IMG/VR virus record: IMGVR_UViG_3300021964_000052
Location: 1,258-65,257 of that record
Origin: a virus
Taxonomy: Duplodnaviria; Caudoviricetes
Reading direction: 5' to 3' (one strand)
DNA: 64,000 bases
Shown in pieces: positions 7,782-63,821 of this stretch; position 1 is the stretch's first letter; every line of letters begins with the position of its first letter. The notes under the pieces were generated by a model, which worked only from the letters and a program-made list of their open reading frames with translations, made no database searches and was not told where the DNA came from. Made by a program: the position numbers and the translations under genes.

Positions 7782-10510
7782 CTTCTTAACTTTATTTCAA
7801 AATACTTTTCTAAATCTTCTAAACTTCTTTCATAACCTTCTTTAAATAATTCTTCGTTTAATAACTTACTTGAAGAGTCCTTAATTAAATATTCATTATT
7901 ATGTTCTCTGTAAGGGATATCAGAAGAAGTTTTAAAATTATAATTATGCCATATACAAGCTTCAGAGCATACTTTTAAATTCCATCCTTTTAAAAAACTA
8001 ATAAATGTTTGAAAATCTTCTTCACCGTTGAATCTAATATTATCTGGTATGTTTACCTCTTTTACCCAATCGCTGTTAGTAAATAAAAATCCTGCTGCTG
8101 CCCATTTAGTATCAAATGGTTTATTATCTTTCCATGAATCAAAGTTTTCCGCTACACATCTATTATCAGTTTCAGAATCTTTTACTAAAAACCTTTTAAC
8201 CTTTAGCGGTGCATTAAATGGTAAATTGAGATAATCTTCTCCTATATCAGGTACATCAAAATTATTAGGGTACGTAGTTAAAATAGCTTTCGGATCATCT
8301 AAAGATTTATATTGACTCAGTAATATAAGGTCCCAGTTTCTTTTAAATCTAGTATGAGAATCTACTTGTAAGAAATATTTCTCATCCTGTATTTCTTTTT
8401 TAATTTTATTTCTAGCTACAACAACACCTTTTGATTGTTCCTTAGGAGTGTATAATATAGTAAGGTCATTATATTTTAACTCTAAAACCTTATTTAATTG
8501 TTCTATAGTATCCTGTAGGTTAACGCACACTACCACTTTACTACTGTCTGAAATATTATTATAAAGGCTTTTTAATGTGTCTATAATTTGACTATCACAG
8601 TAACTTGCTATAGAAACAAATATTTTAGAGTTATCATATTCCCATGCATCTCTATACTCTCTTGCCCAATTAGCTATAAATCCTCTATCTACTTTAAAAC
8701 TAGTTTGATCTTCTTCTTTGAACTGTTCAGTATTCACTATAAAAGTTTTATCTTCTATATCGTTCATCAAACCTCTCATCCTATAAACATAGGAGGATAA
8801 AGTTGAAAGTTTATTACCGATAAATTTTATAGCTCTACTACAAATTAACTGTTCAATTATTGGTATCCAATTATTATTAAATTCTAAATGATTAAGTTTA
8901 GATTTTAAATCATTATAGAATATAACGTTATAATGCTCTTTTATTAATTTAAAAAACTTTTCATCTTGATGATCTGTGGCAATGTAGAGTGTGCCTTGTT
9001 TAGGTATTATATTTTGAATATTAATGAGAAGTTCTTCTGCGGTAATAAACAAGTCTTTGTACTGAAAATCATTTCTTCTTAGATGTAGCGAATAGTAATT
9101 CTTATCCCCTAGTAAATTTATAAAAGCCCATCCTATATCGAATATTTCATTTCTATACCTTACTGTTTTATTTATGAGTGTTTTTAAACTATCTTCATGT
9201 TTAGTAAAAAAAGTAGAATAAAAATTACCTAGTAGATTTCTATCAAAATATAAGTACCTATCATTTTCACTTATTAAATCTTTAATATTAAGTACCTCTC
9301 TCTTTTTTGTAAAACTGGTAGGTGGTTCTAAAGGTTCAAAATTATAAACACAATTATCAGTCTTTATATTTATTTCCTTACATTTACTTTTAATATTATC
9401 GAAACTATCAAAGATGTGTTCAATATCTCGAAACTCTTCGTATTTAATAATTTTAATTTGTTTATTACTAAAATCAAAAAAATCATTCAATCCACAGTAA
9501 TTTTCTAAAAGATAGTAAGAGCTATTTGGAGGTAAGACTAAAGTTCTATTTAATAAAAAAGCTATACATAAAGCTAATTCATACGACATTCTAATATTAT
9601 TAAACCCTCCAGGCCATTCTTTATAAAGTACGTATCCTTCTTCTCCGTTATAAAACTTGAAAATATTTCCATCATCAATACCTTTATAATATCTAAAATC
9701 AGTATTTTTTTGATCTATATTAGATAGAAGAAAAGTATCCAAAGTATTTCTAGCCTTTGATATATCTATTTTCTGCTCTAAGTCAAATGTATGATCTTGT
9801 TTAAAGAAGATTTGATTACCTTCTTTATCCTCAATTTTATTAGGGTAGTGAATAATACTGGGAAGAGTTCTACTATCATTGTGTTCCCATACGCTACATA
9901 TTCCTAACCTATCTAAAAATTTTATATCAATATTATTAGATTTAAAAGCATAATCTAAGCCAAACATTTCTGCTTCCCATTTTTTAGTATTAACTCTATA
10001 GTCTATACAAGCCTGTTTATAAGAATCAATAATTTTTTTAAGAGTAAAGAAATTTAAAGCAAAAGGATACATAATTCCTTTTTTACCGGTAGGATAATTA
10101 TCATTAGGCCTGTTAAAATCTTTCCATCTTTGACCAATTACTTCATTATTAGATAAATTAAAATCTACTGATTGCAAAAATATCATGTCAGGGTCCAAAA
10201 AAAGTATTTTATCTGTATCTATTAAATCTAAATTTTCACATAGCCAAGAAATAGATTCGTACTTATTAGGTATTCCGCCCCACCAGTCTTTATTTTTTAA
10301 TTCCCATTCTTTTGCCCAATCAGGTAGTTCTATAACTTTAGTATTTTTACTAAAATTAAAATCTATTTTTTCGTTTTTATGATTGATATCCTCTGAGAGA
10401 AGTATAGTAAGTTGACCTGTTTGGTTTACATTCTCAAAAGATCGTTCTAGATATTCAAGTTGCCATTTTTGGTAAAGGCACTTGCTTGTACTCACTACTA
10501 CATAGTCCAT
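7778..10510 (-). CDS. Three-domain glycosyltransferase: GT95/GT96-like + O-fucosyltransferase-like + GT60-like
   Basis: N: YQKWQ, GQLTILLS, PNK..SWL, LDPDMIF, WEAEMFG; middle: GGFNNIR, NRTLVLPP, HLRRNDF, LYIATD, EQLICS, STLS; C: IFVSIASY, LQVDSHTRF, AAGFLF, FNGEE. Confidence 0.8.
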   Translation of the reverse strand: MDYVVVSTSKCLYQKWQLEYLERSFENVNQTGQLTILLSEDINHKNEKIDFNFSKNTKVIELPDWAKEWELKNKDWWGGIPNKYESISWLCENLDLIDTDKILFLDPDMIFLQSVDFNLSNNEVIGQRWKDFNRPNDNYPTGKKGIMYPFALNFFTLKKIIDSYKQACIDYRVNTKKWEAEMFGLDYAFKSNNIDIKFLDRLGICSVWEHNDSRTLPSIIHYPNKIEDKEGNQIFFKQDHTFDLEQKIDISKARNTLDTFLLSNIDQKNTDFRYYKGIDDGNIFKFYNGEEGYVLYKEWPGGFNNIRMSYELALCIAFLLNRTLVLPPNSSYYLLENYCGLNDFFDFSNKQIKIIKYEEFRDIEHIFDSFDNIKSKCKEINIKTDNCVYNFEPLEPPTSFTKKREVLNIKDLISENDRYLYFDRNLLGNFYSTFFTKHEDSLKTLINKTVRYRNEIFDIGWAFINLLGDKNYYSLHLRRNDFQYKDLFITAEELLINIQNIIPKQGTLYIATDHQDEKFFKLIKEHYNVIFYNDLKSKLNHLEFNNNWIPIIEQLICSRAIKFIGNKLSTLSSYVYRMRGLMNDIEDKTFIVNTEQFKEEDQTSFKVDRGFIANWAREYRDAWEYDNSKIFVSIASYCDSQIIDTLKSLYNNISDSSKVVVCVNLQDTIEQLNKVLELKYNDLTILYTPKEQSKGVVVARNKIKKEIQDEKYFLQVDSHTRFKRNWDLILLSQYKSLDDPKAILTTYPNNFDVPDIGEDYLNLPFNAPLKVKRFLVKDSETDNRCVAENFDSWKDNKPFDTKWAAAGFLFTNSDWVKEVNIPDNIRFNGEEDFQTFISFLKGWNLKVCSEACIWHNYNFKTSSDIPYREHNNEYLIKDSSSKLLNEELFKEGYERSLEDLEKYFEIKLRR

Positions 10511-13363: not shown

Positions 13364-16300
13364 CTAGTCTTTTAATTTATTCTCTAACTCTTCTACTTTA
13401 CTTGATAATTCTTTTACTGCTTCAATTAATACTGCTGTTAGTTTATCATATTTAACGCCTAAATACCCTCCGTGCATTTCTCCTACAACTTCAGGAAGTA
13501 CGTGTTTAACGTCTTGTGCTACAACTCCTATATCATGACCTTTAAATGTATGTACATTTTCATTTCCAGCTTTCCAATCGAAGTATACTCCTCTTAATTT
13601 ATGAATTTTTTCTAAAGGACTATTAATAATTTTAATATTTTCTTTTAATCTATTATCAGATGAAGCAAATGCTGTAATATTTCCTGTTGCTGTTATCGCA
13701 CCTCCTACCTCTAACTGTGCACCAGTTGTCGTAACTGGCATCTTAACATATTTAGAAGTAGCTGAGATTACCTGCATACCGCCGGCTGTTATCTCTGAAA
13801 ATTCTAACGCTGTACCAGCAGCAGCTGAAACCGTTACTGCGGAACATATTGGAGGTCTATAATCAACCGATAAAACGTTAAGTCCTCCTCCACCATTTGA
13901 AGCATAAGCTGAGATAACAATACTTTTTATAAAAGTTCTCACACTATAAGATGCTCCTAGCTGTAGAGTTACGCCGTTGAAGTTAATATCTAGATTTCCA
14001 GTATCTAGAGTTATAACTTCATCTCCTGATCCTGAGTTACCAAAATTATATAGTTTGGTTTGTATAGTAGAAATAGAACCTTGATAATTTTTACGTAGTT
14101 CTGCTCCTACAGTTATACCTACAGTATGAGATACAGATCCATTTCCGTAAGGATCGTAGGGGCTAAATTCTGATTCAATGTAATGTGAAGTTAATTGAGG
14201 ATTTATAGTAGCAGAAAAAGAAGCATTAACATTATCATAAGCAGATGTTACTGCTGATGATGAAGGAGGTGTAGTATCACTGTTATATAAAGGACCACTA
14301 AAGTTAAAAGTAACATATCCTGAAGTAGAGTTACTAAATCCAGTTCCGTTATTTGTATTACTGATAGTTCCTGTCATAGTTAAAGGAGCTCCAGTATTAG
14401 TTGCAGATAACGAAGTGTTTCTATTTATTCTAACTCTAGCATCACTACCAGAGTAAATTGTTATAGAGGGTGCATCTCCTGCGACTATTTCTATAGAGTC
14501 GTTACCGTCAGAACCAGTAGCAACTAATTCATTTCCTGTAACTGTAAATCCTGCTATAGTACCTCCAGATGCATTAATAGTTCCTTCAATATTAGCATCT
14601 GTCGCCAGTACTGAACCATCGGCAGCAACTGCGAATTTAGGATTTGCAGTATTCGGGACTGTTATTGTAGAACCTACGATAGAACCACTTACACTTAATG
14701 ATGAACCGTCAAACTCTACAAAGTTATTTGCAGTACCTGCTTTAAAACTTCCATCAGCAAACCATTTGTTGTTTGCATTGAGGTATAATCCGTCGTCTGA
14801 GCCACTTACATTAGATCCGAAATAAAAATTATTAGCATTTAATTTACCGGATAGATTAATATTACCTGAGAATGTACCGGCTGTTGCTGTTATATTCCCA
14901 GTTATGGTTGCACTAGTAGCAGTTAATGCTCCTGCTTTAGTAACCTGGAATTCTGCACTACCTTGTGTAGCATGACCAATCCACATATCTCCATCTGATG
15001 CAACTCTAAATATGTCATTTCCTGAACCTATACTTAAACTACCACCAGTAATAGAAGGAGCAGAAAAAGATCCTCCACTTAAGGTCATATTCTCAGCATT
15101 TATATTACCAGCAAAGTATCCTTCTGAAGCTGATATTATCCCGTCTACAATTAATTCTGATTCAGATGCATCCCAGGCTAAACCTCCAGTTGATCCACTT
15201 AAATAGAAATCTCCATTACTAGCCATGTAAGTTGCCCAGTGGGAGGCTGAATGGAATCCTAAATAATTACTTCCTATATATAGTCCAGGAGTAGAAGAAG
15301 GTATTGCAGCCTTTACAACACTACCTGAAACATTAGTAAATGTTCTATTATCTAAATTAGTAACATCAGTAGTTAAGTTATTAATATTACTTGTATTAGT
15401 AGAAGCACTTGCGGTAGCTTGATTTGCTGTGCTTTGTGCATCATTTATCGCATCGTAAGTGGCACCTGAGCTAATAACTATAGAACCGGCTATATCGGCA
15501 TTAGATGCTGTTAAGTTTCCTTCTGCATCTACATTAAAATTACTTCCGATAGCTATGGTACCCCCAGTAATTGCTCCTTTAAACGTCGCTCCACTGTTGT
15601 CTATTACAAACTCTGTACTATGTATTGAACCTGCTTTTGCAAAAGTTATACCGCTAGTGGTAAACCCGCTAGTATCTTTTGCAGAACCTGAGCTAAATAT
15701 GGCATCACTGTCGATATTCCATCCACCAATCGTACCGTCTGTAGCAGTAATAGTACCGTTAATAGTTGCATTAGTAGCTGTTAATGCTCCTGCTGGTGTA
15801 ACTCTAAAAGGTGCTGATGTAAATGTGGCATGCCCTAGAGAGATACCGTTGTTATTTGCTTTAAATATATTATTTGAAGTAGTTCCAATTTCAATAGTAG
15901 AACCAGAAATTAACCCTCTAAATGTAGCATCACCGTCGGAAGCTATTTTAAATTGTTTTGCTCCGATAAACCCTGCTCCTAATGTTATCTGTCCATCTGA
16001 AGAAGCAAATGTATCATCGGCAAGTTCTGTACCTCTATAAATGGCGTTTGAGTCGATTGTCCATCCTCCGACTGATCCTTTTGTTTTAACTAAAGTTTCA
16101 GGGGCGATATGAACTCTATCAACTATTATTTCGTTGGTACCTGCTCCGGTCCAATTTAGTATAATAGGAGAGGCATAAACAGCTGATTCGGTTGGTGTAT
16201 AGTAAAATAAGTATTCAGTAAATGAAGTACCTAAACCAATATCATCTAAATCTAATGCAGCTCCATTTGAAGCTGTTGCAAAGGATGAGATTTGTCTTGT

Positions 16301-19300
16301 ATCTTCTACAACACCGTCTTCAGAGCTTCCTGCCTCATTAGATATATGTGTTTTACCGGCTGGTAGCTCACTGTCTAATTCTTGCATTCTAAAATGGAAT
16401 CCGGAAGAAAGTGTAGTATCTGATTTTACTCTAAGAGAGATTAAATATCTTGCATCAGGGTTAACTTTAAAAGCTGGCCATCCGGCTCCTATGCTATTAT
16501 CTGTAGAGCTATATATTTTTAACTGAGTTTTAGCAGCATCTGCATAAGAAATATTTGATGTAGTAGAACTTCCATAAACAGCTTTAATGCCTCCTGGTCT
16601 ACCATCTAAACCTGCAACTGTAAGATCTGGGTTAAAGTTTACTGCTCCAGCTCCTAGTATGTCAGCTTGATTGATTGTATTATCTTCAGTTAAATCTGTT
16701 GCACCTACTCTTACTGTACCTTTAAAAAATGCATCACTTCCTGTTACAACAAAACTTGGAGAAAATATACTACCCTGTTTAAAGTCGATAAACATACCAT
16801 CATCAGAATAAATTTCTGATTCATCTGGTCCGTCATAGTTAGTGGATACTAGCGCATTCGCTGCTATAAGGTTGGTAACGATTGCTTCATTACCTATATA
16901 AGTTGTATTATTACTAGAATTTATTGCATCAATTGCAGCCATTGCTCCTAAACTACTACTTAAAGTAGCTACAGAAGCGCTAGACTCTGATTGTAATGAA
17001 CCGGTTGCTACATCTAAAGCTGCTTGTGCTGTTTCTTCAGCTGCTGCTTGGGCTTGAGAAGCAGATAATGAAGCCGTTAAGGCAGTTTGATCTATACTAC
17101 CTTCTAATATACTAGAAGAAGCATTTAAATTACTAGTAGCAGTATCGATAGCACTAGAACTTGCTTCTGCTGCTGAACCGCTAAGGTCTGTATGTGATGC
17201 TACATTACCTGCTGTTACTGTTATTGAACCTCTAATTGTTAGAGATTCCTCTGAGGCATCCCATTTTAATTGATCCCCTAATGAGAAGTCTCCTGTGTTG
17301 TCTAAATAGAAGCCGGTTGAACCACTGTAGTAGTCACCATCTCCTACATATACCTTATTAGATTGGATTTGAACTCCTCCTATATCACCGGCTGTAGCTC
17401 TGATTGTTCCTTTGACATCTAGGTTTCCTGCTGCACTATCCCACGCTAAGTAACCTCCTGTAGATCCGGTAAGGAAGAAATTACCGTTATTAGCCATGAA
17501 AGTTTTCCATTCATTATCTTTATAGAATCCTAAATTAGTAGAACCTAAATAAAGACCATCAGATGAAGATACAGGTACTTTAACCAATCTACCTCTATCG
17601 TTTGTAAATACTCTATCATCTAATAATTGAGTAGTACTAGCAAACGAGCCAGAGTTAGTAGCAATAGATGCAGAAGCATAATCTACTGATTCACTATAAG
17701 CATTACTTGCAGATACCGACCCTGTAGCTACTGCATTTACTCTTGCTTCTTCAGCAGCATTAGATCCTGAAGTAACTGCATCTGCTACGTTTGTAGTAGT
17801 AGCAGCATTACCTCCAATAACATTAATATCACCTGACACAGTTAATGTACTTCCATCCCAATAGATATATTGCGGTGATGCAACTCCTGTTCCTGTCCCT
17901 ACTCTAAATTTACCTTCTCCATTAACATATAAACCGGTGTTAGCAGTTTCTGTTATATTAGTAGCTGTTGTACCAATTCTTATCGAACCGCTGTCGAAAG
18001 AACTAGAGATAATCATGTTATCGGTTTTTAATCCGAAATCTTCTACTCTTATTTGAAGATTACCATCATCTGCGTTATCTAAAGTTAGGTAGTTATTTTG
18101 ACCGCCTACTTTAAATGCAGCGTTTGTATACCAGTAGTTATTATTATTAATATGAATACCATCGTTAGACCCTTGAACATCTCTACCAATAGATACTTTT
18201 TGTCCTGTTTCTATTCCTCCTTGTACAGTTGCTACATGAAGTATACCTGCTATTGAACCTGTTTGTGCAGTAATAGTTCCTCTAAAGAATCCATTTTCAG
18301 TATAAATACCAAATCCTGGTTCATCATCTCCATAAAGGTAAGGTGAAGCTAATCCGCTTAAATCACCTAATCTAGTCTTTAAAGATAGGTCGTAAACTCC
18401 TGATCCAGTTCTTTCTACTATATCTATAAACGGAGTATACAAATCATTTGGATTTGCATTGGCTAAAATATACCCAGAAGATACATCTTGTATGTTTGAT
18501 AAGAACCAAAAATCTATAGCTGAGTTAGTAGTATCGGTTGCTGCGCTTTGAGTTTGAAAAAAGTCTTGGTGTAGCTCGATAGGGAATGTATGTAGGTCTC
18601 CGTTTACAGTTGGAGTATCATTTACCTTAAATCTTACCCATTCGTCTGTTCCATCTATAAGAGCAACAATATAACTTTGTTTATCAAATAGTGATAAGAA
18701 GCTTCCTCTATCTGTTCCATTGATATCAGTATCGTAAACTTGCAGCGATGTAGAACCTGTTATGTTGGTAGTTATGTGAGTAGAGCCACTTAAGAATTTA
18801 TACTCACCGTTATCATCAGGAGTCCCGGTAACATTATATTGATAAGGGAATTTATCATTATAGTCAGTACCGGTTGCGAATTTACCAGTTGAGACAAATA
18901 CTTGACCTTCGTTATAAGGTTTAGCTTCGGAAACTAATCCAGCTAAAAATTCTCTATCTAAATCTATCTTTAACACATCATCCCCCGCATTATGAGGTGC
19001 TGGTTGTGTATCGCCAAAGTCTCTAATTACATTTAAAGAAGCTGAAGCGTCTGTACCAGAGCCGGAAATTCCAGTAATCTTCATTCTTTCATCTCCGATT
19101 TTAATTACATCTTGTATAATTAAAGATCCCGTACTATCGATAGTTATAGTACCGCTTTCACCTGTTCCTGCAGTTGGCATAGCTATATCAGAGCTAAGAA
19201 CTGAGATTGAGCTAGATATTGAAGACGGGCCTATTGAACCATATTCTCTTCCTACGTAAAGCTCTCCTGCTAGACCGTCTGGGTCTATAGCTGGATTACC

Positions 19301-21190
19301 AGATCCTGATATTGAACCTGTAATATATGATAAAGTAGGATCTTCGCTAAATCTTTTAGAACCAGTCACATAAAGGTATTCAACAGAAAAGCCAGTATCA
19401 TCTACTTTCTTAGCCATTAATATTTCTCCTCTAGCAAAACCACTTGCGTTAGCAACTGACATTGTAGTATCGGTAGCGGACATAGTTACTGAACCGGCTA
19501 ATACTACACTACCACTTCTTAAAGCTTGTAATGTAGTTCCATTTGATACCATTAATTGTCCACCGACAACGTTAACAGATTCTTTTTCAAATACTGTTGT
19601 TCTCAGCGTTCCTCTAACTCTTACATTTTCAAATTCAGCGGAACCATTACCTAGAGTATCTAATCTATATCCTTTTAATCCGCTTACAAAGTCAGAGGAT
19701 TCTATTCTTCCTGATGAATGTAGTACTAATCCTGTCTCACCTTCTGCATATTGTCCACCGAATCCAGAATTAGGAATAGATCTAATTTGAGTATTAGTAA
19801 CCTCCCATCCTGCTATTTTATTTCCTTGTTGTCCGAACATTGCAATGGAAGAAGATATATCTGTCCCTTGTCCGTCAAATATTTTTAATCCGTATAAGTC
19901 TCCTGCAGCATTAGATATTTCTCCTAGTCTAATTATTTCTGCTGAACCTGTATCGTAAATTTGTATGCGTTGAGTACTAGAATCTATGTCGATAAAATTC
20001 GTGTCTAACTTAAATACCTCTGTCTTAATATCAACACCATTGGTTGAATCAAACCTTACGTAGTTAGTATTATCTTTAGTTAGGTCCAGGGTAGGAACTG
20101 TGTTGTTCATACCTATAATAATACCTGCAGTAGAGTCCTGGTCAAATGTTGTTTTTGATCCCATACGGATAAAGTTATCCGTTGCACCACCCTGTATTAC
20201 TACTTTATTAGCTGAACCGATATCTATACGAGATATATCTCCGTACATTACAATATTACCTTCTCCAAGTGACATAGATGCTTGAGTAGAAGATAATTCT
20301 ATGTTTGTAGCGTCTAATTCAAATCCACTTGTAAGAATATTAACATTGGACCCGTCATACTTAATAAAGTTTGTTGAACCGTTACCGGCATAAAATCTAG
20401 GAGTGCCTGAGTTTTCCTGTAGCTGAATACCCTTAGAGGCAAAGGATGCACTGTGGATTGTTATACTACCGTCAGATGAGTCTATTATTAGATCATCTTT
20501 AAATATTCTAGATGAGTTAATTTCCCATCCTGCTATTTTACCTCCGGTAAATAATACAGCTGAACCAGTTATATCACCGCTTCCCTGTACTATAAAATTA
20601 TTAGAGTTAATAAATGTACCAGCATTTGTTGGTGAACCACTTATAAAGATACTAGAAGCAAATGCTCCTCCGGGTCTAGAAACTAAAACATCATCTTTAA
20701 TTTCAAATCCTCCTATAAGACCGGATGATGCTGTAATAGATCCTTCTAACCTTGCTCCGGAAGCAATAAGTTGTCCACTAGAAGATACGGCATATGTAGA
20801 ACCAAAATGTTGATAGAAAGGGTATCCCTTACTCTCATCTGGTTCTAAAGTAATATAGTATTCATCTGCTAAAAGTCTAGATGAAACTCCAACTGTTGAT
20901 CCAGGGGCTTTATTTTTATCGTATAAGGAAGAAGAACGAAAATCTATTACTAATGTACTTCCTGTAATTTGTCCATCTCCAAGAAAAATATCTGCTACAC
21001 TACCTCCATCAGTAAGGAAGTTACCGAATGCTTCGGAACCTACAGATATATCTTGTTCTTCACCATTAGCCTTATAAAGTACTAATATGTTATTGTTAAG
21101 TGAACTTGAGTAATAAAACGATCTAAAATTCGCATCTACCTCTTCATGAGTTAGAGGTTCACCTTTAATATCTCTAAACGTTAAAGCCAT
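13364..21190 (-). CDS. Long tail fibre (2608 aa) with C-terminal intramolecular chaperone (peptidase S74)
   Basis: SDNRLKENI...IGVVAQDV...[18 protein letters not shown]-terminus; Gly/Ser/Thr-rich beta repeats (G.IGGW.I); N-terminus paralogous to 21214..22827. Confidence 0.9.
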
Positions 21191-40190: not shown

Positions 40191-40211
40191 ATATATAACC
40201 TTTATTTATAC

Positions 40212-40245
40212 CTTAATATATGAATATTCTATCAAATATCCAACT
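40212..40245 (-). promoter_or_regulatory. Putative early/host-sigma promoter
   Basis: AGTTG-N20-TATATTAAG. Confidence 0.75.
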
Positions 40246-45635: not shown

Positions 45636-45651
45636 AAATTAATTTTTAAAG

Positions 45652-45725
45652 TAGTCCCTGTAGGAGTCGAACCTACAACCTCCTGATTCGTAGTCAGGTG
45701 CTCTATCCAATTGAGCTAAGAGACT
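45652..45725 (-). tRNA. tRNA-Arg(ACG), CCA not encoded
   Basis: AGTCTCT/AGGGACT acceptor, GCTC D-stem, CCTGA-CT-ACG-AA-TCAGG, GTAGG-TTCGACT-CCTAC. Confidence 0.95.
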
Positions 45726-49271: not shown

Positions 49272-49598
49272 CTATTCTCTGCTTTGTGACTGTTCCATCA
49301 TAGTTTCATAGTAAGGACTATTAACCATTTTTTCATTAAACGTTTTGTATACTGCCTTATTAGTCCCATACATATACAAAGGACCGTCATACTCATAAGT
49401 AATAAAAGGAATATTTTCTAAGTCAGTTTGACCTTGCTTAGGTTGATACTCAGGTTTAGAATATCTTCTTTTACTATCAAATGATCTAAACTCTCTAGAA
49501 GTTACTCTATACCATTTACCTTTGATTTCGACTTCCAATACTGCCTCAGTAGGAAAATCGTATACTAATTTTTCTAAATGTCCTTTTTTTTCTGCCAT
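49272..49598 (-). CDS. Hypothetical protein
   Basis: ORF track; AATAAAGGTTATG start. Confidence 0.75.
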   Translation of the reverse strand: MAEKKGHLEKLVYDFPTEAVLEVEIKGKWYRVTSREFRSFDSKRRYSKPEYQPKQGQTDLENIPFITYEYDGPLYMYGTNKAVYKTFNEKMVNSPYYETMMEQSQSRE

Positions 49599-49613
49599 AA
49601 CCTTTATTTCTAG

Positions 49614-49753
49614 TATCGGGGGAGGGACTCGAACCCTCGACCTCTTTGACCCTTTTGCTTTTTACGATCGATTATTACAAGTAATACTTTACGTTTAAGA
49701 ATTACTACGCTCCAGGTTAAGTCAAAACGAGCTACCTACTGCTCTACCCCGTT
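49614..49753 (-). ncRNA. tRNA-like RNA (140 nt) with a 70-nt insert in place of the anticodon loop
   Basis: AACGGGG/CCCCGAT acceptor, GAGC-AGTAGGTA-GCTC D arm, TTTTGAC/GTCAAAG stem, AGGTC, GAGGG-TTCGAGT-CCCTC T arm. Confidence 0.8.
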
Positions 49754-49760
49754 ATATTAT

Positions 49761-49794
49761 CTAAATATAAGAAAATACTATCAAATATCCAACT
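49761..49794 (-). promoter_or_regulatory. Promoter immediately upstream of the tRNA-like RNA
   Basis: AGTTG-N20-TATATTTAG. Confidence 0.75.
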
Positions 49795-50374
49795 GATACC
49801 CATTGAATGTTTTAATGTATTCAGTTAATTTTACTCTGTTTCCATCTTCAAACATTGTACCATTTCTAACCCATTTCTTTACGCTTCCTGGTCCTACTAG
49901 ATGAGCTGCAGCTAATAATCCAGACTCAGTAACTAATATTCCGTTTACTAACTGTCTATCATATTTTTTTATTTGTCTTTTAAGAACTTTCTTATTAGCT
50001 TTAAGAAGTTTGACTATAGCTTCTTCTTGAATGTCTGGAGAGTTTAAGAATTCGGCTCTACTTATATTGTAACCTAATCCTTTAAGAGTACTACTACCAA
50101 ACTGGTACTTTCCCATATACCCATATTGATTTACTACGTCATATCTATTACTTGATTCTCTATGTCCTAAATCATTTAAAAAACTATCTAGGTTAGGAAT
50201 CTCATCTATCATAACTGCTTCTATTTCTATTGGAATAGTAACTACCTCTTTAGCTTCTATTTCAGATATCTTTTCTATATTATGGTAAGCCATATAGCCG
50301 AACGATGCAAGCATAAAACTAAATAAAACAAATGCAAAGCCCAGAACGAATTCTATGTTTTCTAATTTTTTCAT
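49781..50374 (-). CDS. Lysozyme/transglycosylase-like protein with N-terminal TM anchor
   Basis: HRESSNRYDVVN.YGYMGKYQFG, F...P..QE, LAAAHL.G.G. Confidence 0.75.
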   Translation of the reverse strand: MKKLENIEFVLGFAFVLFSFMLASFGYMAYHNIEKISEIEAKEVVTIPIEIEAVMIDEIPNLDSFLNDLGHRESSNRYDVVNQYGYMGKYQFGSSTLKGLGYNISRAEFLNSPDIQEEAIVKLLKANKKVLKRQIKKYDRQLVNGILVTESGLLAAAHLVGPGSVKKWVRNGTMFEDGNRVKLTEYIKTFNGYQLDI

Positions 50375-50388
50375 ATTTAAGTTTTTGA

Positions 50389-50541
50389 TTAAAATAAATC
50401 TAAGAATGATGTGTTGATATTCTTATCTTTTAGTTTCTCATTTCTCTCATGAGTTTTAACTAATTTATCCGCTACTTGTCTTTCGAGCGGCTTTCTTTTT
50501 TTCCAAGTGGAAAATTTACCTTTAGGTTGTTTTTTAGACAT
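50389..50541 (-). CDS. 50-aa basic protein (not in ORF track)
   Basis: MSKKQPKGKFSTWKKRKPLERQVADKL...SFLDLF. Confidence 0.6.
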   Translation of the reverse strand: MSKKQPKGKFSTWKKRKPLERQVADKLVKTHERNEKLKDKNINTSFLDLF

Positions 50542-50711: not shown

Positions 50712-51344
50712 TTATAAATGTGATATAAATTCATCTCCAGGATTAGAATCTTCTTCGTATAATCCTAGTTCTTTTAAATGTTCAATATGATGTTCATCTA
50801 AGTCCCAATCAGGCTCATCATCTTTTGTTCTCACGTAATCTTCCATTGCCTCTGCACGTTTCTCATCTATAGGAGAAGCTGCATAAAGAAAGGAATGATT
50901 GTAGCAGAGAAACTCTAAATTTTCTAAGTGCCAATTTTTTTTATTGCCGTCTTTAAAGTTAAGTATAACCGGTATCTTCTGGTCAGTCACTCTTCTTTCA
51001 GCAAATCCACACTTAGCACAAACTTCAACTAACTTACCTTCACTCAGTAATCTAGCTTTTATCTTTCTAGGATCAAAATGCTCAATAGGAACCCTTCCTT
51101 CTAATAAATCTAAAAGAGGTATTTCTTTATTACCTGAAACAGCAAATTTAGGAATTCCTTCACCTGCTTGATTCATATGAACTTCTAATAAAGTAACTCC
51201 ATCATCATTCTTATACATTTTAGCGTACTTCTTATAGTGGTTATAAGAGACATGTAAGTACCTTGCAGCTGCTAAGTTTGAACGAGTTACTTTTTGAGCT
51301 CGAAGAATATCTTCTTTAGTTAATATTTTAGAGGGTCTTGCCAT
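50712..51344 (-). CDS. HTH + degenerate HNH-like domain protein
   Basis: AAARYLHVSY HTH; CAKC...LNFKDGNKKN..LENL.FLC.NH. Confidence 0.7.
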   Translation of the reverse strand: MARPSKILTKEDILRAQKVTRSNLAAARYLHVSYNHYKKYAKMYKNDDGVTLLEVHMNQAGEGIPKFAVSGNKEIPLLDLLEGRVPIEHFDPRKIKARLLSEGKLVEVCAKCGFAERRVTDQKIPVILNFKDGNKKNWHLENLEFLCYNHSFLYAASPIDEKRAEAMEDYVRTKDDEPDWDLDEHHIEHLKELGLYEEDSNPGDEFISHL

Positions 51345-52637: not shown

Positions 52638-52811
52638 CTACCCAAATAACATTTGTTTACTATTAGAAGAACCTTCACTAATAATCTTATGATCTACAAT
52701 ATGTCTGTTCCTACACCATTGCTCAATTGACCATTCAATTCTATCAGTTGTAAGTTCTACTTCTTCTTTAATTCCGTTTGCGTGAGTAAACTCTATAATG
52801 TATTTTTTCAT
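52638..52811 (-). CDS. 57-aa hypothetical protein (not in ORF track)
   Basis: MKKYIIEFTHANGIKEEVELTTDRIEWSIEQW...KQMLFG; ATGA-coupled. Confidence 0.7.
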   Translation of the reverse strand: MKKYIIEFTHANGIKEEVELTTDRIEWSIEQWCRNRHIVDHKIISEGSSNSKQMLFG

Positions 52812-53971
52812 AGTTTAAGTAAATCGTTAGTATATGACTTTAATTTTTTTATATTAATAAATAGATTTCCTAATTTGAATTCTCCTACTTCACCATTGTT
52901 ATCTAGAATTTGTGATAATTGCTGAATAATATTATAGTCTTCCTTAGTAAAAGTTTTTGATTTAATTCTAATAAAAATATCTACCTGTTTAAATGTATTA
53001 AACTTATCCTTTAAAGGTACAATTGTATTAGGTTGTTCTTTATTAATATAGTTTTCTAATATTTCGTCTGGAGTATCTGTTAAGTTAATATTATCTGCCC
53101 ATGGTTCTAAAGCTTCTAAAAGTTCAGGAGTGCATTCATCTATCCATAAACCTATATTGTACTTATTAGGTATTATAGGTTTCATAAGAGAGTCGTGTAA
53201 TACAAAATGTCCCCATTTACGAATAAAGTTACGTCCGTTCTTAGTAGTAGTCTGTATCCATTCTTGGCTGTTTTTGCCAGCAGCTCCTCCTGAATGTTTA
53301 TTAAATCTAGATCCTCTAGAAGTAAAGTGGTATACTAATGCATCCCATGGTTGGATGAATTTATACCCATTAAGTTGGAATCGATTAAACAAGTCCGAGT
53401 CTTCTTTAGATTGAGGAGCAAATAATTCATCATGTCCTCCTACAGCTAAAAAATCTTCTTTATACATACACCATGGAGCAAAAATACCTTCAGTAGTCTT
53501 ATCCTCTTTTAATTTATCGCTTCCTTCATACCAAGCATCAATATTAAATTCATCTACTTCTATACCGTAGTTACGAAGAATCTTTTCTGGTCCATCAGGA
53601 TGTAATGGTGGTTCAACTCTAGTTCCGGAAACTACTTTACCTCTTTCTAAATGCTTAAGAATATTTTTATCGTAATCTCTACATACAACCATATCGGAAT
53701 GGAAAGCACAAATTATATCTGTACGTGCCATTTCTATTCCTCTATCAAACATACCAACGATTCCTATCCTATCTGGTCCTGGGTTATGAAAAGTAATAAG
53801 ATCCAAATCATCTTGAGCATCAATCCAATCTTGAGTACCGTCTGTTGAGGCATCATTAAGAACTAATATTTCATGCTTAGTTTCTAAATCTCTAATGGAT
53901 TTATAAGCTAGTTGTAAAAACTCTAGATTATTTCTAGAGGGTATAACAAATGTAATTTTATTTAAATTCAT
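52808..53971 (-). CDS. GT2 glycosyltransferase
   Basis: TFVIPSRN, NDASTDGT, HSDM, VGGHD.LF...EDSD..R. Confidence 0.9.
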   Translation of the reverse strand: MNLNKITFVIPSRNNLEFLQLAYKSIRDLETKHEILVLNDASTDGTQDWIDAQDDLDLITFHNPGPDRIGIVGMFDRGIEMARTDIICAFHSDMVVCRDYDKNILKHLERGKVVSGTRVEPPLHPDGPEKILRNYGIEVDEFNIDAWYEGSDKLKEDKTTEGIFAPWCMYKEDFLAVGGHDELFAPQSKEDSDLFNRFQLNGYKFIQPWDALVYHFTSRGSRFNKHSGGAAGKNSQEWIQTTTKNGRNFIRKWGHFVLHDSLMKPIIPNKYNIGLWIDECTPELLEALEPWADNINLTDTPDEILENYINKEQPNTIVPLKDKFNTFKQVDIFIRIKSKTFTKEDYNIIQQLSQILDNNGEVGEFKLGNLFINIKKLKSYTNDLLKL

Positions 53972-54797
53972 TTTCTATATAATCTTGAATATTAATAGTT
54001 GCTTTCCATCCTAATACTTCTTCAGCAGTAGTATCTGTGTTAAGAGTATTTCTAGCTTCACCAGGTCTAGCCGGTACGTATTTAAAGTCTACTCCTATCA
54101 TTCTAATTAATTCATTTATAGAATAGTTCTCTCCTCTTCCTAACTCAAACTCATACCCCCAAGCTTTTTGCTCACCTATTTTATAGAGTGCAGAAACTAT
54201 ATCATCTATATGAGTAAAGTCTCTTCTTTGATTACCATCTCCTGTAACTAAAAGAGTTTTATTATCTCTAAAAGCTTTTAACCAAATACCGATAACAGTA
54301 CAGTACCCTCCTACTTCTAATTGATAGGGACCATAAACGTTATAGAATCTAGCAATAGAGGCTTTTAAACCGTAATGCTTTTGATAAAGTTCTACAATAT
54401 CCTCTCCTACATCCTTAGAAAAAGTATAAGGGTTTTTAAATCTACCACTATGTTTAGAAGACGATCCTGCGTAAACTATAGGTACGTTATTTTTTGCACA
54501 CCAATCAATTAAATTTAAACTTCCGTTCGCGTTTGTAGTAAAGTAATCAATTGGATTTTTAAATGAAGGTTGAATCCTAGCAATAGCAGCCATATGAAAT
54601 ACTAGATTTGGTTCTAACCAGGAATAGTCTTTTATGTTTCTAATATCATAATTAAGGTATTCACATCCTTCAATATGATTCTCTTTTAATCCAGTATGGT
54701 AGTTATCTATACTAACTACTTGATGACCTTCTCTAAGAAGTCTAATAATTAGATTTGTTCCTACAAATCCTGCTCCTCCTGTAACAATTATTTTCAT
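53958..54797 (-). CDS. NAD-dependent sugar epimerase/dehydratase (extended SDR)
   Basis: TGGAGFVG, YTFSK, RFYNVYGP, GDG.Q.RDF.HIDD. Confidence 0.92.
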   Translation of the reverse strand: MKIIVTGGAGFVGTNLIIRLLREGHQVVSIDNYHTGLKENHIEGCEYLNYDIRNIKDYSWLEPNLVFHMAAIARIQPSFKNPIDYFTTNANGSLNLIDWCAKNNVPIVYAGSSSKHSGRFKNPYTFSKDVGEDIVELYQKHYGLKASIARFYNVYGPYQLEVGGYCTVIGIWLKAFRDNKTLLVTGDGNQRRDFTHIDDIVSALYKIGEQKAWGYEFELGRGENYSINELIRMIGVDFKYVPARPGEARNTLNTDTTAEEVLGWKATINIQDYIENEFK

Positions 54798-62375: not shown

Positions 62376-63821
62376 CTAATAAATATATTTATGTTTAACA
62401 TACTTAAGTTCAGGTTTTTCTATTTTAATAATATCAAATTTAGAACGAGGTTTGAAAGTTTTAAGAGTAGTATCAATTCCGTCAATGATATTATTACACA
62501 TACTAGAAGCTGACATACCAGACTCCTCAGACGTAACCCATTCTCTTCCTTTTAGTCCTTTTTCTTTTCTTTCTTCAGAAGGCATATTGTAAACTTTCTC
62601 TATAGCCTTAGCTATATCTCTAAAATCAGATCTATCATCAAAAATATAAGGAGTAGGAACTGAACCTACTAATGATATATTTGAAGGAAATAAAGGGACT
62701 GCCCATTCACCACACTCTTTATAAGTACCCTGGTGATTAGAAGGAAAGTCAGCATCAAAATTTATCCACTCACTCTTCTCATTTACAAATCTCATCTGAT
62801 CTTGCATACCTCCAGTAACTGTAGCAGATATCATAGTACCAGCCATCATCGATTCAGTAAGAGCTAATCCCCAACCTTCATTAGAAGAAGGAAGAACTGT
62901 TAAATCAGCAAGATTATATAACCAGTTCATTTGACTTGTACTTAATTTATCTTTAGAGAAAAAGATATTAACATATTCTGGATCACATAAAGCTTCTTTA
63001 GTAGCAATTAAATCTGTTCCGTTTTGATCTATAGGATTAGTATGAAATATTAATGCACATTTCTTAGCTGCATCCTTACCTATCTTATCACAGAATATTC
63101 TAAAGGCTAACATTAAGTCACTTGGAGACTTTCTTCTAATATTTCTAGAGTTAAAAAATACTACGTACTCTATCTTTTTACCGTTAAAAATATTTTCTTT
63201 AAACTTACTAAACCCTTCATACTGCTCATGCTCTTTAGTAATAGGAAAGAATTGCTCTTTGTTGATACCGTGGGGTACGTATTTAATTACTTTATTTTTA
63301 GCTTTCTCTCCTAATACTAACTTATTAATATTAACAGTTTGCTTAGATATCCCCATAAGTAAATCACAAGAGTCATAAAAATCTCTATTGTATAAAGGAG
63401 CTGGATAATCGTCCCATATATTTAAATAACATATAGGTATATGATTCCTGATTTCTCTTTCAATATCAAATAACCAAGTCCAATATCTTGGGTCAGTAAA
63501 TATAAAAATAGCATCTGGTTTCTCTTTTTTAATAAGATTTCTAATAATAGTAGTAGTACCGTATCCATTGTTAGGTATAACCTTAACATTAGAGTCTTCT
63601 ATACCAGCTTTTTTATTTATATCAGCTGAAAGATCTAATGCCTTACCAGCATCTGGATGTTTAATTGCAGCACCAAGTTGTACCCAATTATAACGGTGAG
63701 CAGTTCCTATAACTATTTCTCTAGCCATAGTAGCTATACCAGAATGCATTCTAATATCGTCACAGAGAAGTAGGATTTTTTTTCTATCCTCTCTTTTTAA
63801 ATAACCATTTTTGTTTTCCAT
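62376..63821 (-). CDS. GT4 glycosyltransferase
   Basis: SGIA, VPHGI, RNIRRK, LYN.AD...PS..EGWGL..TESM.AG. Confidence 0.9.
   Translation of the reverse strand: MENKNGYLKREDRKKILLLCDDIRMHSGIATMAREIVIGTAHRYNWVQLGAAIKHPDAGKALDLSADINKKAGIEDSNVKVIPNNGYGTTTIIRNLIKKEKPDAIFIFTDPRYWTWLFDIEREIRNHIPICYLNIWDDYPAPLYNRDFYDSCDLLMGISKQTVNINKLVLGEKAKNKVIKYVPHGINKEQFFPITKEHEQYEGFSKFKENIFNGKKIEYVVFFNSRNIRRKSPSDLMLAFRIFCDKIGKDAAKKCALIFHTNPIDQNGTDLIATKEALCDPEYVNIFFSKDKLSTSQMNWLYNLADLTVLPSSNEGWGLALTESMMAGTMISATVTGGMQDQMRFVNEKSEWINFDADFPSNHQGTYKECGEWAVPLFPSNISLVGSVPTPYIFDDRSDFRDIAKAIEKVYNMPSEERKEKGLKGREWVTSEESGMSASSMCNNIIDGIDTTLKTFKPRSKFDIIKIEKPELKYVKHKYIY

What the first reader, a model, noticed from the sequence alone, without database searches (positions are those of the whole stretch)
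49614..49753. tRNA-shaped RNA with a structured 70-nt insert replacing the anticodon loop
Seen: intact acceptor (one A-A mismatch at 2:71), D and T arms resembling initiator tRNA. The anticodon stem (TTTTGAC/GTCAAAG) encloses 70 nt (49651-49720) that continue pairing (CCT/AGG, GC/GC) and contain a hairpin AGTAAT-T-CTT...AAG-T-ATTACT. It starts a few nt after its own promoter and ends 15 nt before the next start codon. The insert is too short for a group I intron and is not a clean bulge-helix-bulge, and there is no G3-U70 pair as in tmRNA. Depending on register, the bases after the stem read TTA or TAA. Inference: a tRNA-mimic ncRNA (decoy for anticodon nucleases, synthetases or ribosome sensors), an unusual intron-containing tRNA, or a tRNA-like 5' leader.
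Basis: partly seen in the sequence, partly recalled or inferred. Interest (0 to 1): 0.75.

Follow-up and report, generated by a model that had tools for sequence, protein, structure and literature searches.

The report
Phage tRNA-like RNA carrying swappable module
This is a real, conserved gene of uncultured marine phages for an RNA with the body of an initiator tRNA, whose anticodon loop is replaced by one of three interchangeable folded inserts, so it most likely does not decode but uses the tRNA shape as a carrier for a small functional RNA of unknown role.

Summary
On the minus strand at 49753..49614 lies a 140-nt cloverleaf with a 5-7 bp acceptor stem, D arm, T arm, a 7-bp anticodon stem and a 70-nt insert. 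It is not a one-off. Pattern scans recovered 108 loci and 71 distinct sequences in viral and marine or estuarine metagenome contigs. None was found in GenBank phages or cellular genomes.

- **Structure:** all stems covary.
- **Origin:** the D arm matches that of phage initiator-type tRNA-Met(CAT) genes.
- **No plain allele:** no insert-less version was found (0 of 108).
- **Insert types:** three occupy the same site, A (window, core plus hairpin), C (core only) and B (unrelated sequence). They swap at loci with the same downstream gene.
- **Against decoding:** two extra conserved base pairs close the would-be anticodon loop, the 4-6 nt bulge varies (UUAA, UAAA, AUAA, UUAUAA), and no splicing enzymes were found.

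Best reading: an unspliced tRNA-scaffolded non-coding RNA, processed like a tRNA, whose insert is the effector. Function is unknown and there are no expression data. This is a new variant of tRNA-like RNAs.

The parts
49614..49753 (-). Whole tRNA-like RNA gene (140 nt; position 1 = 49753, discriminator A = 49614).
   Evidence: ARAGORN -i. Model R1 scores it 151.3 bits, by construction since it is in the seed. Fold; family alignment.
49721..49753 (-). 5' half of the tRNA body: acceptor 5' strand (49753-49747), U8 A9, D arm (49744-49729), G26, and 5' strand of the 7-bp anticodon stem (49727-49721).
   Evidence: In one search, D stem 52/52 paired, anticodon stem 100% paired with 3 pairs changed on both sides, acceptor pairs 3-7 covary. 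The D stem covaries in further members: GAGC/GCTC 66, GTTC/GAAC 4, CCTC/GAGG 1.
49717..49720 (-). 4-nt bulge UUAA on the 5' strand, between the anticodon stem and helix P1.
   Evidence: UUAA in 67 of 71 distinct sequences, UAAA in 2, UUAUAA in 1, AUAA in 1.
49651..49716 (-). Insert module, type A. It contains P1 (CCU 49716-49714 with AGG 49653-49651), a purine-rich 3x3 internal loop, P2 (GC 49710-49709 with GC 49658-49657), a variable hairpin, and a conserved single-stranded core.
   Evidence: P1 covaries: pair 41:111 is UA 37 / CG 15, and pair 42:110 is CG 41 / UA 7 / AU 3 / GC 1. RNAalifold on type C finds the same P1 and P2.
49680..49706 (-). Variable hairpin of the type A insert (AGUAAU-U-CUU / loop / AAG-U-AUUACU). 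It is absent from type C copies.
   Evidence: MFE fold. The base pair 49:81 covaries (AU 16 / GC 16 / GU 3) and the inner CUU/AAG stem is kept in 37-38 of 38. Deleted in all 14 type C sequences of that alignment.
49665..49670 (-). Invariant self-complementary hexamer CGAUCG in the conserved core (...AAUCGAUCGUAAAAAGCAAAAG).
   Evidence: Invariant columns in 52 of 52 type A and C sequences. It is the only CGATCG in the 64-kb window.
49614..49650 (-). 3' half of the tRNA body: 3' strand of the anticodon stem (49650-49644), variable loop AGGUC (49643-49639), T arm (49638-49622), acceptor 3' strand (49621-49615), and discriminator A (49614).
   Evidence: T stem 100% paired with 3 pairs changed on both sides.
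49764..49794 (-). Promoter-like 31-nt motif upstream of the element. A second exact-pattern copy lies at 40215-40245, upstream of another ORF.
   Evidence: 2 matches against 0.00 expected. Alignment. Sigma-70-like hexamers TTGATA-17-GATAAT and TGGATA-16-TATATT, where the region holds 3 such sites against 2.8 in shuffles, so this is not significant on its own.
49272..49598 (-). Downstream 108-aa ORF (no family match), whose AAATAAAGGTTAT leader follows the element. Context only, not part of the RNA.
   Evidence: Homologous downstream ORFs occur in 8 loci, all with type A copies.

Best explanation
This is a gene for a stable tRNA-like non-coding RNA that descends from a phage initiator tRNA-Met gene.

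The acceptor stem, D arm and T arm are kept. The RNA should therefore fold into the L shape and be cut out of its transcript by the host's tRNA-processing enzymes RNase P and RNase Z. That step is inferred.

The anticodon loop no longer exists. The anticodon stem is lengthened to 7 bp, followed by a 4-nt bulge (UUAA) and a stacked helix. That helix carries one of three interchangeable folded modules:
- type A: a core plus a hairpin, as in this window;
- type C: the core alone;
- type B: an unrelated two-hairpin module.

The RNA is not spliced and does not decode. The tRNA body acts as a carrier and processing handle, and the module is the working part. Each module exposes a conserved self-complementary hexamer, CGAUCG in A and C and AUGCAU in B. 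I therefore infer, weakly, that it acts through loop-loop RNA pairing (self-association) or by binding a symmetric partner.

Shown: the family, the fold, the ancestry, the module exchange, and the position in tRNA arrays or directly behind a promoter.
Inferred: the processing, the lack of splicing, and the mode of action.
Unknown: the biological role.
For: **Family.** 108 loci and 71 distinct sequences were found: A 46, C 16, B 9.

**Fold.**
- On 52 sequences, 87.2% of cells are paired against 77.5% in shuffles, and 19 pairs change on both sides (0 of 500 shuffles reach this).
- Slid controls give 34-48% paired.
- The type B fold has 13 compensatory pairs among 39.

**Ancestry.**
- The 17-nt D arm is shared with 52 ordinary phage tRNA rows, all reading CAT at the anticodon by my reading.
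- A11:U24 holds in 66 of 71.
- 1:72 is unpaired in 29 of 52.

**Not a decoder.**
- Pairs 32:38 and 33:37' are kept in 52 of 52.
- The bulge varies, and ARAGORN names different anticodons for different members (tag, aag).
- There are 0 insert-less alleles in 108 loci.
- 0 of 5 partial phage records encode RNA ligase, RtcB or tRNA-splicing endonuclease.

**Treated as a tRNA gene.** It lies 0-10 nt behind tRNA-Gln(TTG) or tRNA-Met(CAT) in 17 of 97 loci. There is one copy per record in 5 of 5 records.

**Module is the unit of function.**
- The same downstream-gene cluster carries C (18), A (9) and B (3) inserts.
- Near-identical bodies carry different inserts.
- The type B hairpin GGUA[GAUGCAUA]UACC also occurs free between tRNA-Ile and tRNA-Thr (L278 and L337).
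- The same hairpin occurs again as an arm of another cloverleaf-like RNA (L302, z = -3.88).

**Self-complementary loops.**
- CGAUCG is invariant in 52 of 52.
- Self-duplex energies: type C loop -12.6 kcal/mol (0.7% of shuffles as good); type B loop -6.9 (1.4%).
- L210 turns the flanking U.G into C-G.
Against: - **No expression data.** The only RNA run found covers 50138-50501 and not the element, and it is held as contigs.
- **Weak fold in isolation.** The window copy alone folds no better than shuffles (z = -0.68).
- **Self-pairing is post hoc.** It is not significant for type A (-8.0 and -8.9 kcal/mol; 13-16% of shuffles as good). The bulge is not always a palindrome (UAAA, AUAA).
- **Intron hints remain.**
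  - A UAA trinucleotide is present in every bulge variant.
  - In standard tRNA numbering the insert sits at the canonical 37/38 intron position.
  - ARAGORN -i and, for type C and L286, the Rfam tRNA model accept these as tRNAs with an insertion.
- **A cis role is possible.** 85 of 100 loci have an ORF start within 25 nt downstream.
- **Enzyme absence is weak.** The five records searched are only 40-73% complete, and host enzymes were not examined.
- **Sampling bias.** All members were found with sequence patterns taken from this family, so more divergent or insert-less relatives could have been missed.
Confidence: 0.55

Rival explanations
1. It is an intron-containing tRNA. The insert would be removed, either by host or phage proteins or by an unknown small self-splicing activity, to give a working tRNA. 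The anticodon would be UAA (Leu) or UUA (reading the UAA stop).
For:
- In standard numbering the insert follows position 37.
- UAA is present in every bulge variant.
- Type C copies and L286 pass the Rfam tRNA threshold: 35.4, 33.7 and 36 bits against a threshold of 29.
- Different inserts at one site resemble intron variation.
- Bacteroidota hosts commonly have RtcB: the control genome Bacteroides thetaiotaomicron rings.
Against: - After excision the conserved 7-bp stem leaves no 7-nt loop. Pairs 32:38 and 33:37' are kept in 52 of 52, with C at position 33 instead of U.
- There is no constant anticodon (UUAA, UAAA, AUAA, UUAUAA).
- A class I body with a 5-nt variable loop does not fit bacterial tRNA-Leu (established knowledge).
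- Acceptor pairs 1:72 and 2:71 are unpaired in 29 and 26 of 52.
- There are 0 insert-less alleles among 108 loci.
- The bulges are in the wrong order for a bulge-helix-bulge, and P1 is 3 bp in types A and C but 7-8 bp in type B.
- At 38-74 nt the inserts are too short for group I, and no ribozyme or intron family appears at E <= 10.
- No ligase, RtcB or endonuclease was found in 5 records.
- ORFs in the window are intact under code 11, so no stop suppressor is needed.
Confidence: 0.1
2. It is a cis-acting 5' element of the downstream mRNA. The tRNA shape would serve as a cutting signal (tRNA punctuation), a 5' stabiliser, or a ribosome-recruiting mimic of initiator tRNA for the ORF that starts 7-20 nt later.
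For: - In the window it lies between a repeated promoter-like motif and the shared leader AAATAAAGGTTAT.
- 85 of 100 loci have an ATG ORF of at least 40 aa within 25 nt.
- The body is initiator-like.
- One metagenome contig has the same locus without the element, with the promoter motif joined directly to the leader. This evidence is weak: one contig, a 28-nt side, and likeness set at 90.
Against: - Downstream ORFs fall into 19 unrelated clusters.
- 17 of 97 copies sit directly behind another tRNA in arrays.
- A mere cutting signal does not explain the strongly conserved, exchangeable insert modules or the invariant CGAUCG.
- Gene spacing is tight throughout these phages, so proximity alone is weak evidence.
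- The three G-C pairs that define initiator anticodon stems are absent.
Confidence: 0.15
3. It is a decoy or sponge. The uncleavable tRNA-shaped RNA would bind and block a host tRNA-targeting defence nuclease, or a tRNA-binding enzyme. This is a special case of the non-coding RNA reading, with a named target class.
For: - The tRNA elbow and T arm consensus are intact, but the usual cleavage target, the anticodon loop, is gone.
- Modules are exchanged at orthologous loci, as expected in an arms race.
- The locus shows presence/absence polymorphism (weak).
- Phage tRNAs that counter anticodon nucleases are known (recalled literature, not read here).
Against: - No defence system, target or partner protein was identified.
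- The conserved sequence lies in the insert, not in a mimic of any known anticodon loop.
- Nothing in these tools tests binding.
Confidence: 0.15
4. It is a decaying tRNA pseudogene disrupted by a selfish insertion, or an assembly artefact.
For: - Acceptor-end mismatches are present.
- It is dispensable in one related contig.
- An HNH endonuclease gene lies 1 kb upstream.
Against: - 71 distinct sequences from many independent assemblies keep all stems with compensatory changes.
- The insert core is more conserved than the stems.
- The window region is covered without differences inside the element by contigs of three DNA runs.
Confidence: 0.03

Closest known systems
Bacteriophage T4 species 1 and species 2 RNAs (rnaC, rnaD)
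   Same: - Both are small stable RNAs of 139 and 119 nt encoded in the phage's tRNA gene cluster (annotation).
- rnaC ends in a tRNA-like T arm and acceptor stem.
- Their function is still unknown (recalled).
- The size and the placement next to tRNA genes match this family.
   Different: - There is no homology. Model R1 gives rnaC 12.7 bits, below each of the eight T4 tRNAs (16-49 bits).
- rnaC lacks a normal D arm and has long hairpins elsewhere.
- Here the whole cloverleaf is kept and only the anticodon loop is replaced.
Intron-containing tRNAs: archaeal and eukaryal bulge-helix-bulge introns at 37/38, and bacterial group I introns in tRNA-fMet and tRNA-Leu(UAA)
   Same: - An insertion sits in the anticodon region of a tRNA gene, at 37/38 in standard numbering.
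- The parent is an initiator-type tRNA, as for the cyanobacterial tRNA-fMet intron (recalled).
- ARAGORN reports it as an intron.
   Different: - There is no bulge-helix-bulge geometry.
- The inserts are 38-74 nt, against about 200 nt or more for group I.
- No intron-less alleles exist, the exons cannot form a 7-nt loop, and there is no constant anticodon.
Engineered 'tRNA scaffold' for recombinant RNA (Ponchon and Dardel; recalled; related papers seen only as listings)
   Same: The architecture is the same. An RNA of interest replaces the anticodon loop on an extended anticodon stem of a tRNA (tRNA-Met or tRNA-Lys), so that the cell processes and stabilises it as a tRNA.
   Different: That scaffold is a laboratory design. 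This would be a natural counterpart, evolved in phages, with three natural cargo modules.
YrlA (bacterial Y RNA with a tRNA-like domain) and tmRNA
   Same: Both are non-decoding bacterial or phage RNAs that mimic the tRNA elbow, T arm and acceptor.
   Different: - YrlA is circularly permuted and binds Rsr. Rfam gives 13.4 bits against a threshold of 69.
- tmRNA has G3:U70, pseudoknots and a tag reading frame.
- Here 3:70 is C-G, ARAGORN finds no tmRNA, and the only Rfam match is the 18-nt T arm (10.2 bits against a threshold of 47).
Kissing-loop dimerisation hairpins such as the HIV-1 DIS (recalled)
   Same: In type B, a 6-nt self-complementary sequence flanked by purines sits in an 8-nt hairpin loop, G-AUGCAU-A. 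Types A and C have a self-complementary CGAUCG in the distal loop.
   Different: Dimerisation was not shown. The context is unrelated, and the type A energies are not above shuffles.

Membership tests
Canonical tRNA (Rfam RF00005) | Score at or above the curated threshold of the Rfam tRNA model. | tested here: not met
   The window copy gets no RF00005 match at gathering threshold or at E <= 10. Short relatives do pass: L265 35.4, L131 33.7 and L286 36 bits, against a threshold of 29.
Canonical tRNA (Rfam RF00005) | Cloverleaf with D arm, T arm and a 7-bp acceptor stem. | tested here: inconclusive
   The D and T stems are paired in 52 of 52, and acceptor pairs 3-7 covary. But 1:72 is unpaired in 29 of 52 and 2:71 in 26 of 52.
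Canonical tRNA (Rfam RF00005) | 5-bp anticodon stem closing a 7-nt loop with U33 and a defined anticodon. | tested here: not met
   The stem is 7 bp, position 33 is C and is paired, and a 38-74-nt insert follows. The bulge varies: UUAA 67, UAAA 2, UUAUAA 1, AUAA 1.
Bacterial initiator tRNA | CAU anticodon and three consecutive G-C pairs at the base of the anticodon stem. | tested here: not met
   The stem is UUUUG/CAAAG and there is no CAU in a loop position.
Bacterial initiator tRNA | A11:U24 and a mismatch at 1:72. | tested here: inconclusive
   A11:U24 holds in 66 of 71. 1:72 is unpaired in 29 of 52, but it is paired (A-U) in the window copy, where the mismatch is at 2:71. These points show ancestry, not membership.
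tRNA with a bulge-helix-bulge intron | Two 3-nt bulges on opposite strands separated by a 4-bp helix, each bulge lying 3' of the central helix on its strand. | tested here: not met
   The bulge (4 nt) and the AAA side of the internal loop lie 5' of the 3-bp helix on their strands. In type B the helix is 7-8 bp with no second bulge.
tRNA with a bulge-helix-bulge intron | A splicing endonuclease and an RNA ligase are available. | tested here: inconclusive
   PF01974, PF01139 and PF09414 were each found in 0 of 5 phage records, but the records are only 40-73% complete and hosts were not examined.
tRNA with a group I intron | An intron of about 200 nt or more with the P3-P9 catalytic core. | tested here: not met
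   The insert is 70 nt here and 38-74 nt in the family. No Intron_gpI match appears at E <= 10.
Small self-cleaving ribozymes (hammerhead, twister, pistol, hatchet, HDV-like) | Match to the family's covariance model. | tested here: not met
   No such family is listed at E <= 10 over 49500-49850, or at E <= 1 in seven related loci. As a positive control, the same kind of search did find a pistol ribozyme elsewhere in L278.
tmRNA | G3:U70, a tag reading frame and pseudoknots. | tested here: not met
   3:70 is C-G. ARAGORN finds no tmRNA. Rfam matches only the T arm, at 10.2 bits against 47.
YrlA / Y RNA-like | Permuted tRNA-like domain on an Rsr-binding stem; Rfam RF02553. | tested here: not met
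   13.4 bits against 69, with many non-pairs.
T4 species 1 RNA (rnaC) | Sequence and structure similarity to T4 rnaC. | tested here: not met
   R1 against the T4 tRNA region gives rnaC 12.7 bits (E 0.015), which is lower than all eight T4 tRNAs.

The most novel reading that the evidence does not exclude
These RNAs would be a natural tRNA-scaffold system. Phages would use the initiator-tRNA body to have the host cut out and stabilise small, exchangeable effector modules. The modules would pair with themselves or each other through self-complementary loops (CGAUCG, AUGCAU), forming dimers or larger assemblies. The module types would be specificity alleles in a phage-host or phage-phage conflict, for instance an RNA-based anti-defence. 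Less likely, the inserts would be a new class of very small spliced intron.
Probability: 0.15. Interest if true: 0.85.

Novelty: new variant of a known kind. Interest (0 to 1): 0.6.

Why it matters
tRNA-like RNAs of phages, such as T4 species 1 and 2, have stood without a function for decades. Here a whole family shows which part is constant and which part is exchanged: the constant part is the tRNA body, used as a handle for the host's processing enzymes, and the exchanged part is the module in place of the anticodon loop. That turns the question into a testable one, namely what the modules bind.

If the reading holds, nature found the 'tRNA scaffold' trick that laboratories use to express recombinant RNA. 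The modules would then be candidates for new RNA-RNA or RNA-protein interactions in abundant marine phages of Bacteroidota-type hosts.

There is also a practical point. Annotation pipelines will label these genes as tRNA-Leu with an intron or as plain tRNA, which is probably wrong.

Tried and rejected
- **Expression and splicing.**
  - The one RNA run offered (X20, held as contigs, word share 0.09) covers only 50138-50501.
  - It says nothing about the element. It gives no evidence either way.
- **Neighbour proteins as anchors.**
  - The 108-aa ORF gave no related locus in viral contigs.
  - The 197-aa ORF gave 2.
  - I switched to DNA patterns.
- **GenBank phages.**
  - Type A and type B queries found no homologue.
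  - The only hits were 26-nt T-arm matches in 7 records for type A; type B had none.
- **Cellular genomes.** The single hit in a cyanobacterial MAG (also L250) has no T arm and is a chance match.
- **Antisense target.** No complement of the conserved core occurs elsewhere in the window. The best other site has 5 mismatches in 21.
- **Alternative pairing of GCGCG with UCGUG.** RNAalifold proposed it on 10 sequences. It is not kept in type C or in the window copy, so it was dropped in favour of GC/GC. Neither option has decisive covariation.
- **UUAA bulge as a palindrome or pseudoknot partner.** Rejected once UAAA and AUAA variants appeared.
- **Type B loop as a displaced CAU anticodon.** The loop is 8 nt with G, not U, before CAU. 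Rejected by inspection.
- **The 15-mer of the type B hairpin.**
  - It gave 85 stretches in viral contigs.
  - All but L286, L278/L337 and L302 are unrelated, mostly coding, contexts, as expected by chance.
- **The type A/C core pattern.** 24 of 39 new rows are unrelated GC-rich contexts.
- **Promoter scan.** 3 sigma-70-like sites against 2.8 in shuffles, and no terminator. This is not evidence by itself.
- **Literature.**
  - Five full-text searches, read as listings and abstract starts only, named no paper on this family.
  - The T4 genome review was not held.
  - What I say about T4 RNA function, tRNA scaffolds, the HIV DIS, YrlA architecture and cyanobacterial tRNA introns is recalled.
  - Supplementary files were not consulted.
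Full report
**What is in the window.**

The feature is on the minus strand, 49753..49614. It reads as a 140-nt cloverleaf with these parts:
- acceptor AACGGGG/CCCCGAU, with A.A at 2:71 and C-G at 3:70;
- U8 A9;
- D arm GAGC-AGUAGGUA-GCUC;
- G26;
- a 7-bp anticodon stem UUUUGAC/GUCAAAG;
- variable loop AGGUC;
- T arm GAGGG-UUCGAGU-CCCUC;
- discriminator A.

Between the two strands of the anticodon stem lie exactly 70 nt (49720..49651). These begin UUAA and continue with CCU/AGG and GC/GC pairs and a 27-nt hairpin (MFE fold, ARAGORN drawing).

The detectors disagree. Plain ARAGORN and Rfam, at gathering threshold and at E <= 10, do not report it. Taken alone, the sequence folds no better than its shuffles (z = -0.68), so the case rests on comparison with relatives.

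**Where it comes from.**

The window is part of a 65-kb IMG/VR virus record estimated 40% complete, with 32.6% G+C. It carries baseplate wedge, tail fibre and hub-lysozyme-like genes, a viral BACON domain and many glycosyltransferases. Its only GenBank relatives are weak matches to Flavobacterium and Tenacibaculum myophages. DNA runs that hold the stretch are labelled estuary or marine metagenomes.

**A family.**

DNA patterns taken from the D arm, T arm and stem found relatives in several scans.
- The first viral scan gave 13 family loci among 55 stretches. Most of the rest are two adjacent tRNAs.
- Later viral scans added more.
- In all there are 108 loci with 71 distinct sequences. Some loci are the same contig held in two collections, so the distinct sequences are the fair count.
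- GenBank phages hold none.
- The scan of 185,579 species genomes gave one chance hit.
- Five larger records each hold exactly one copy.

**The fold is selected.**

On 52 distinct type A and C sequences, 87.2% of cells pair, against 77.5% in column shuffles. Nineteen pairs change on both sides (0 of 500 shuffles reach this), and the covariation score is 0.296 against 0.128. Sliding the partners by 1-3 columns drops pairing to 34-48%.

Individual stems behave as follows.
- The anticodon and T stems are 100% paired.
- P1 covaries (UA 37 / CG 15; CG 41 / UA 7 / AU 3 / GC 1).
- The D stem, invariant in that set, covaries in further members (GAGC/GCTC 66, GTTC/GAAC 4, CCUC/GAGG 1).
- The top of the acceptor stem is loose: 1:72 is unpaired in 29 of 52 and 2:71 in 26 of 52.

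**Ancestry.**

The 17-nt D arm is shared with 52 ordinary phage tRNA rows that all read CAT at the anticodon, many with the CGCGGGG...GGGCTCATAACCC signature of initiators. This is my reading. A11:U24 and the frequent 1:72 mismatch fit that origin. In L012 the element follows an initiator-like tRNA-Met after a single base.

**Three modules at one site.**

- Type A (46 sequences, including the window) has P1, a purine-rich 3x3 internal loop, P2, a variable hairpin, and a conserved single-stranded core with an invariant CGAUCG.
- Type C (16 sequences) is the same without the hairpin, leaving a 22-23-nt terminal loop.
- Type B (9 sequences) is unrelated in sequence. It has a 7-8-bp P1 and two hairpins, the second being GGUA[GAUGCAUA]UACC.

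Near-identical tRNA bodies carry different modules. Loci sharing the same downstream gene carry all three: a cluster of 30 loci has C 18, A 9 and B 3, and two further mixed clusters exist.

The type B hairpin also occurs outside this scaffold. It appears in an 85-nt spacer between tRNA-Ile and tRNA-Thr (L278 and L337). It also appears as one arm of another four-hairpin, T-arm-bearing RNA (L302, z = -3.88). Neither is in Rfam.

**Why it is probably not a decoding or spliced tRNA.**

- The two pairs beyond the normal 5-bp stem (32:38 and 33:37') are kept in 52 of 52. Removing the insert would therefore leave a 7-bp stem and no 7-nt loop, and position 33 is a paired C.
- The bulge is UUAA in 67 sequences, UAAA in 2, UUAUAA in 1 and AUAA in 1. 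ARAGORN accordingly names different anticodons for different members.
- No insert-less allele exists among 108 loci.
- The geometry is not a bulge-helix-bulge.
- The inserts are far below group I size, and no ribozyme or intron model matches.
- RNA ligase, RtcB and tRNA-splicing endonuclease families are absent from five records. Those records are only 40-73% complete, and host enzymes remain possible.

Some points argue the other way. UAA is present in every bulge variant. The site equals 37/38 in standard numbering. The Rfam tRNA model accepts type C and L286.

**How it is expressed (inferred).**

In 17 of 97 loci the element lies 0-10 nt behind tRNA-Gln(TTG) or tRNA-Met(CAT). There it must be released by the tRNA-processing enzymes.

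In the window it lies just downstream of a 31-nt promoter-like motif, which has a second copy at 40215-40245 (2 matches against 0 expected). It also lies just upstream of the leader AAATAAAGGTTAT, which at the second copy directly follows the motif.

One contig of a DNA run joins 49609 to 49787 through 30 other letters. By eye, those letters recreate that direct motif-to-leader arrangement. This suggests a relative without the element, but it is one contig with a 28-nt side at likeness 90, so it is weak.

No RNA data cover the element.

**What it may do.**

The constant part is the tRNA elbow, T arm and five acceptor pairs. The exchanged part is the module. I therefore read the body as a processing and stability handle and the module as the effector.

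Both module kinds display a conserved self-complementary hexamer. Self-duplex energies are -12.6 kcal/mol for the type C loop (0.7% of shuffles as good), -6.9 for the type B loop (1.4%), and an unremarkable -8 to -9 for type A. L210 strengthens the flanking pair. This points to loop-loop pairing or a symmetric partner, but it is a post hoc observation.

CGATCG occurs nowhere else in the window, and no antisense target was found there. The biological role is unknown. Anti-defence, self-assembly, and a cis role for the ORF that starts within 25 nt in 85 of 100 loci all remain open.

**Comparison and novelty.**

The nearest known things are these.
- T4 species 1 and 2 RNAs sit in a similar place and are of similar size, but there is no homology.
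- Intron-containing tRNAs: the defining features were tested and not met.
- YrlA and tmRNA: not met.
- The laboratory tRNA scaffold has the same architecture (recalled).

Five literature searches, read as listings only, found no description of this family. I rate it a new variant of the known kind 'tRNA-like non-coding RNA'.

Noticed in passing
window 40215-40245 and 49764-49794 (minus strand): A 31-nt promoter-like motif (AGTTGGATATTTGATAG.AT.TTC.TATATT) occurs twice (0 expected). At 40215 it is followed directly by the leader AAATAAAGGTTAT and an ATG. It may be a class of phage promoter.
   Followed up: partly
window 49610-49786, seen in run X1: One metagenome contig replaces the element and its 33 upstream bases with 30 letters that resemble the motif-to-leader junction at 40203-40232. 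This suggests a related phage without the element. It is weak: one contig, a 28-nt side, likeness 90.
   Followed up: partly
window 50712-51344 (minus strand): A 210-aa ORF matches PHROG HNH endonuclease families (E 5.7e-7) about 1 kb upstream of the element. Homing endonucleases also sit in the T4 tRNA cluster (segB).
   Followed up: no
window 45651-45725 (minus strand): An ordinary tRNA-Arg(ACG), at 69.6 bits, is the only canonical tRNA in the window.
   Followed up: yes
L278 4071-4155 (identical in L337): The 85-nt spacer between tRNA-Ile(TAT) and tRNA-Thr(TGT) folds into a closed stem that carries the same GGUA[GAUGCAUA]UACC hairpin as the type B insert. It would be a free-standing small RNA in a tRNA array. 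It has no Rfam match.
   Followed up: partly
L302 about 1760-1880: A 121-nt four-hairpin RNA (MFE -50.1 kcal/mol, z = -3.88) has a long closing stem, a T-arm-like hairpin (GCGG-UUCGACU-CCGC) and the GAUGCAUA-loop hairpin. It may be another kind of tRNA-like RNA. ARAGORN and Rfam are silent on it.
   Followed up: partly
L278 2281-2333: A pistol ribozyme match lies above the Rfam threshold (41.3 bits against 34.5) in a phage contig that also holds several tRNAs.
   Followed up: no
L271 2409-2547 (T4 rnaC): In T4 species 1 RNA, the segment UUGACG at the tip of the first long hairpin is complementary to the loop CGUCAA of the second hairpin. A loop-loop contact is possible. This was seen by eye.
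   Followed up: no
L040 about 1939-2041: A GC-rich phage contig holds another tRNA-shaped gene with an intact acceptor, D arm and T arm and a long insertion after the anticodon-stem region that contains a hairpin with a UUAAC loop. It is unrelated in sequence to this family.
   Followed up: no
window 13364-21190 and 5294-10510, 52808-54797, 62376-63821: There is a 2608-aa ORF. There is also a concentration of sugar-modifying genes: carbamoyltransferase, GlcNAc and fucosyl transferases, family 2 glycosyltransferases, and an NAD-dependent epimerase.
   Followed up: no
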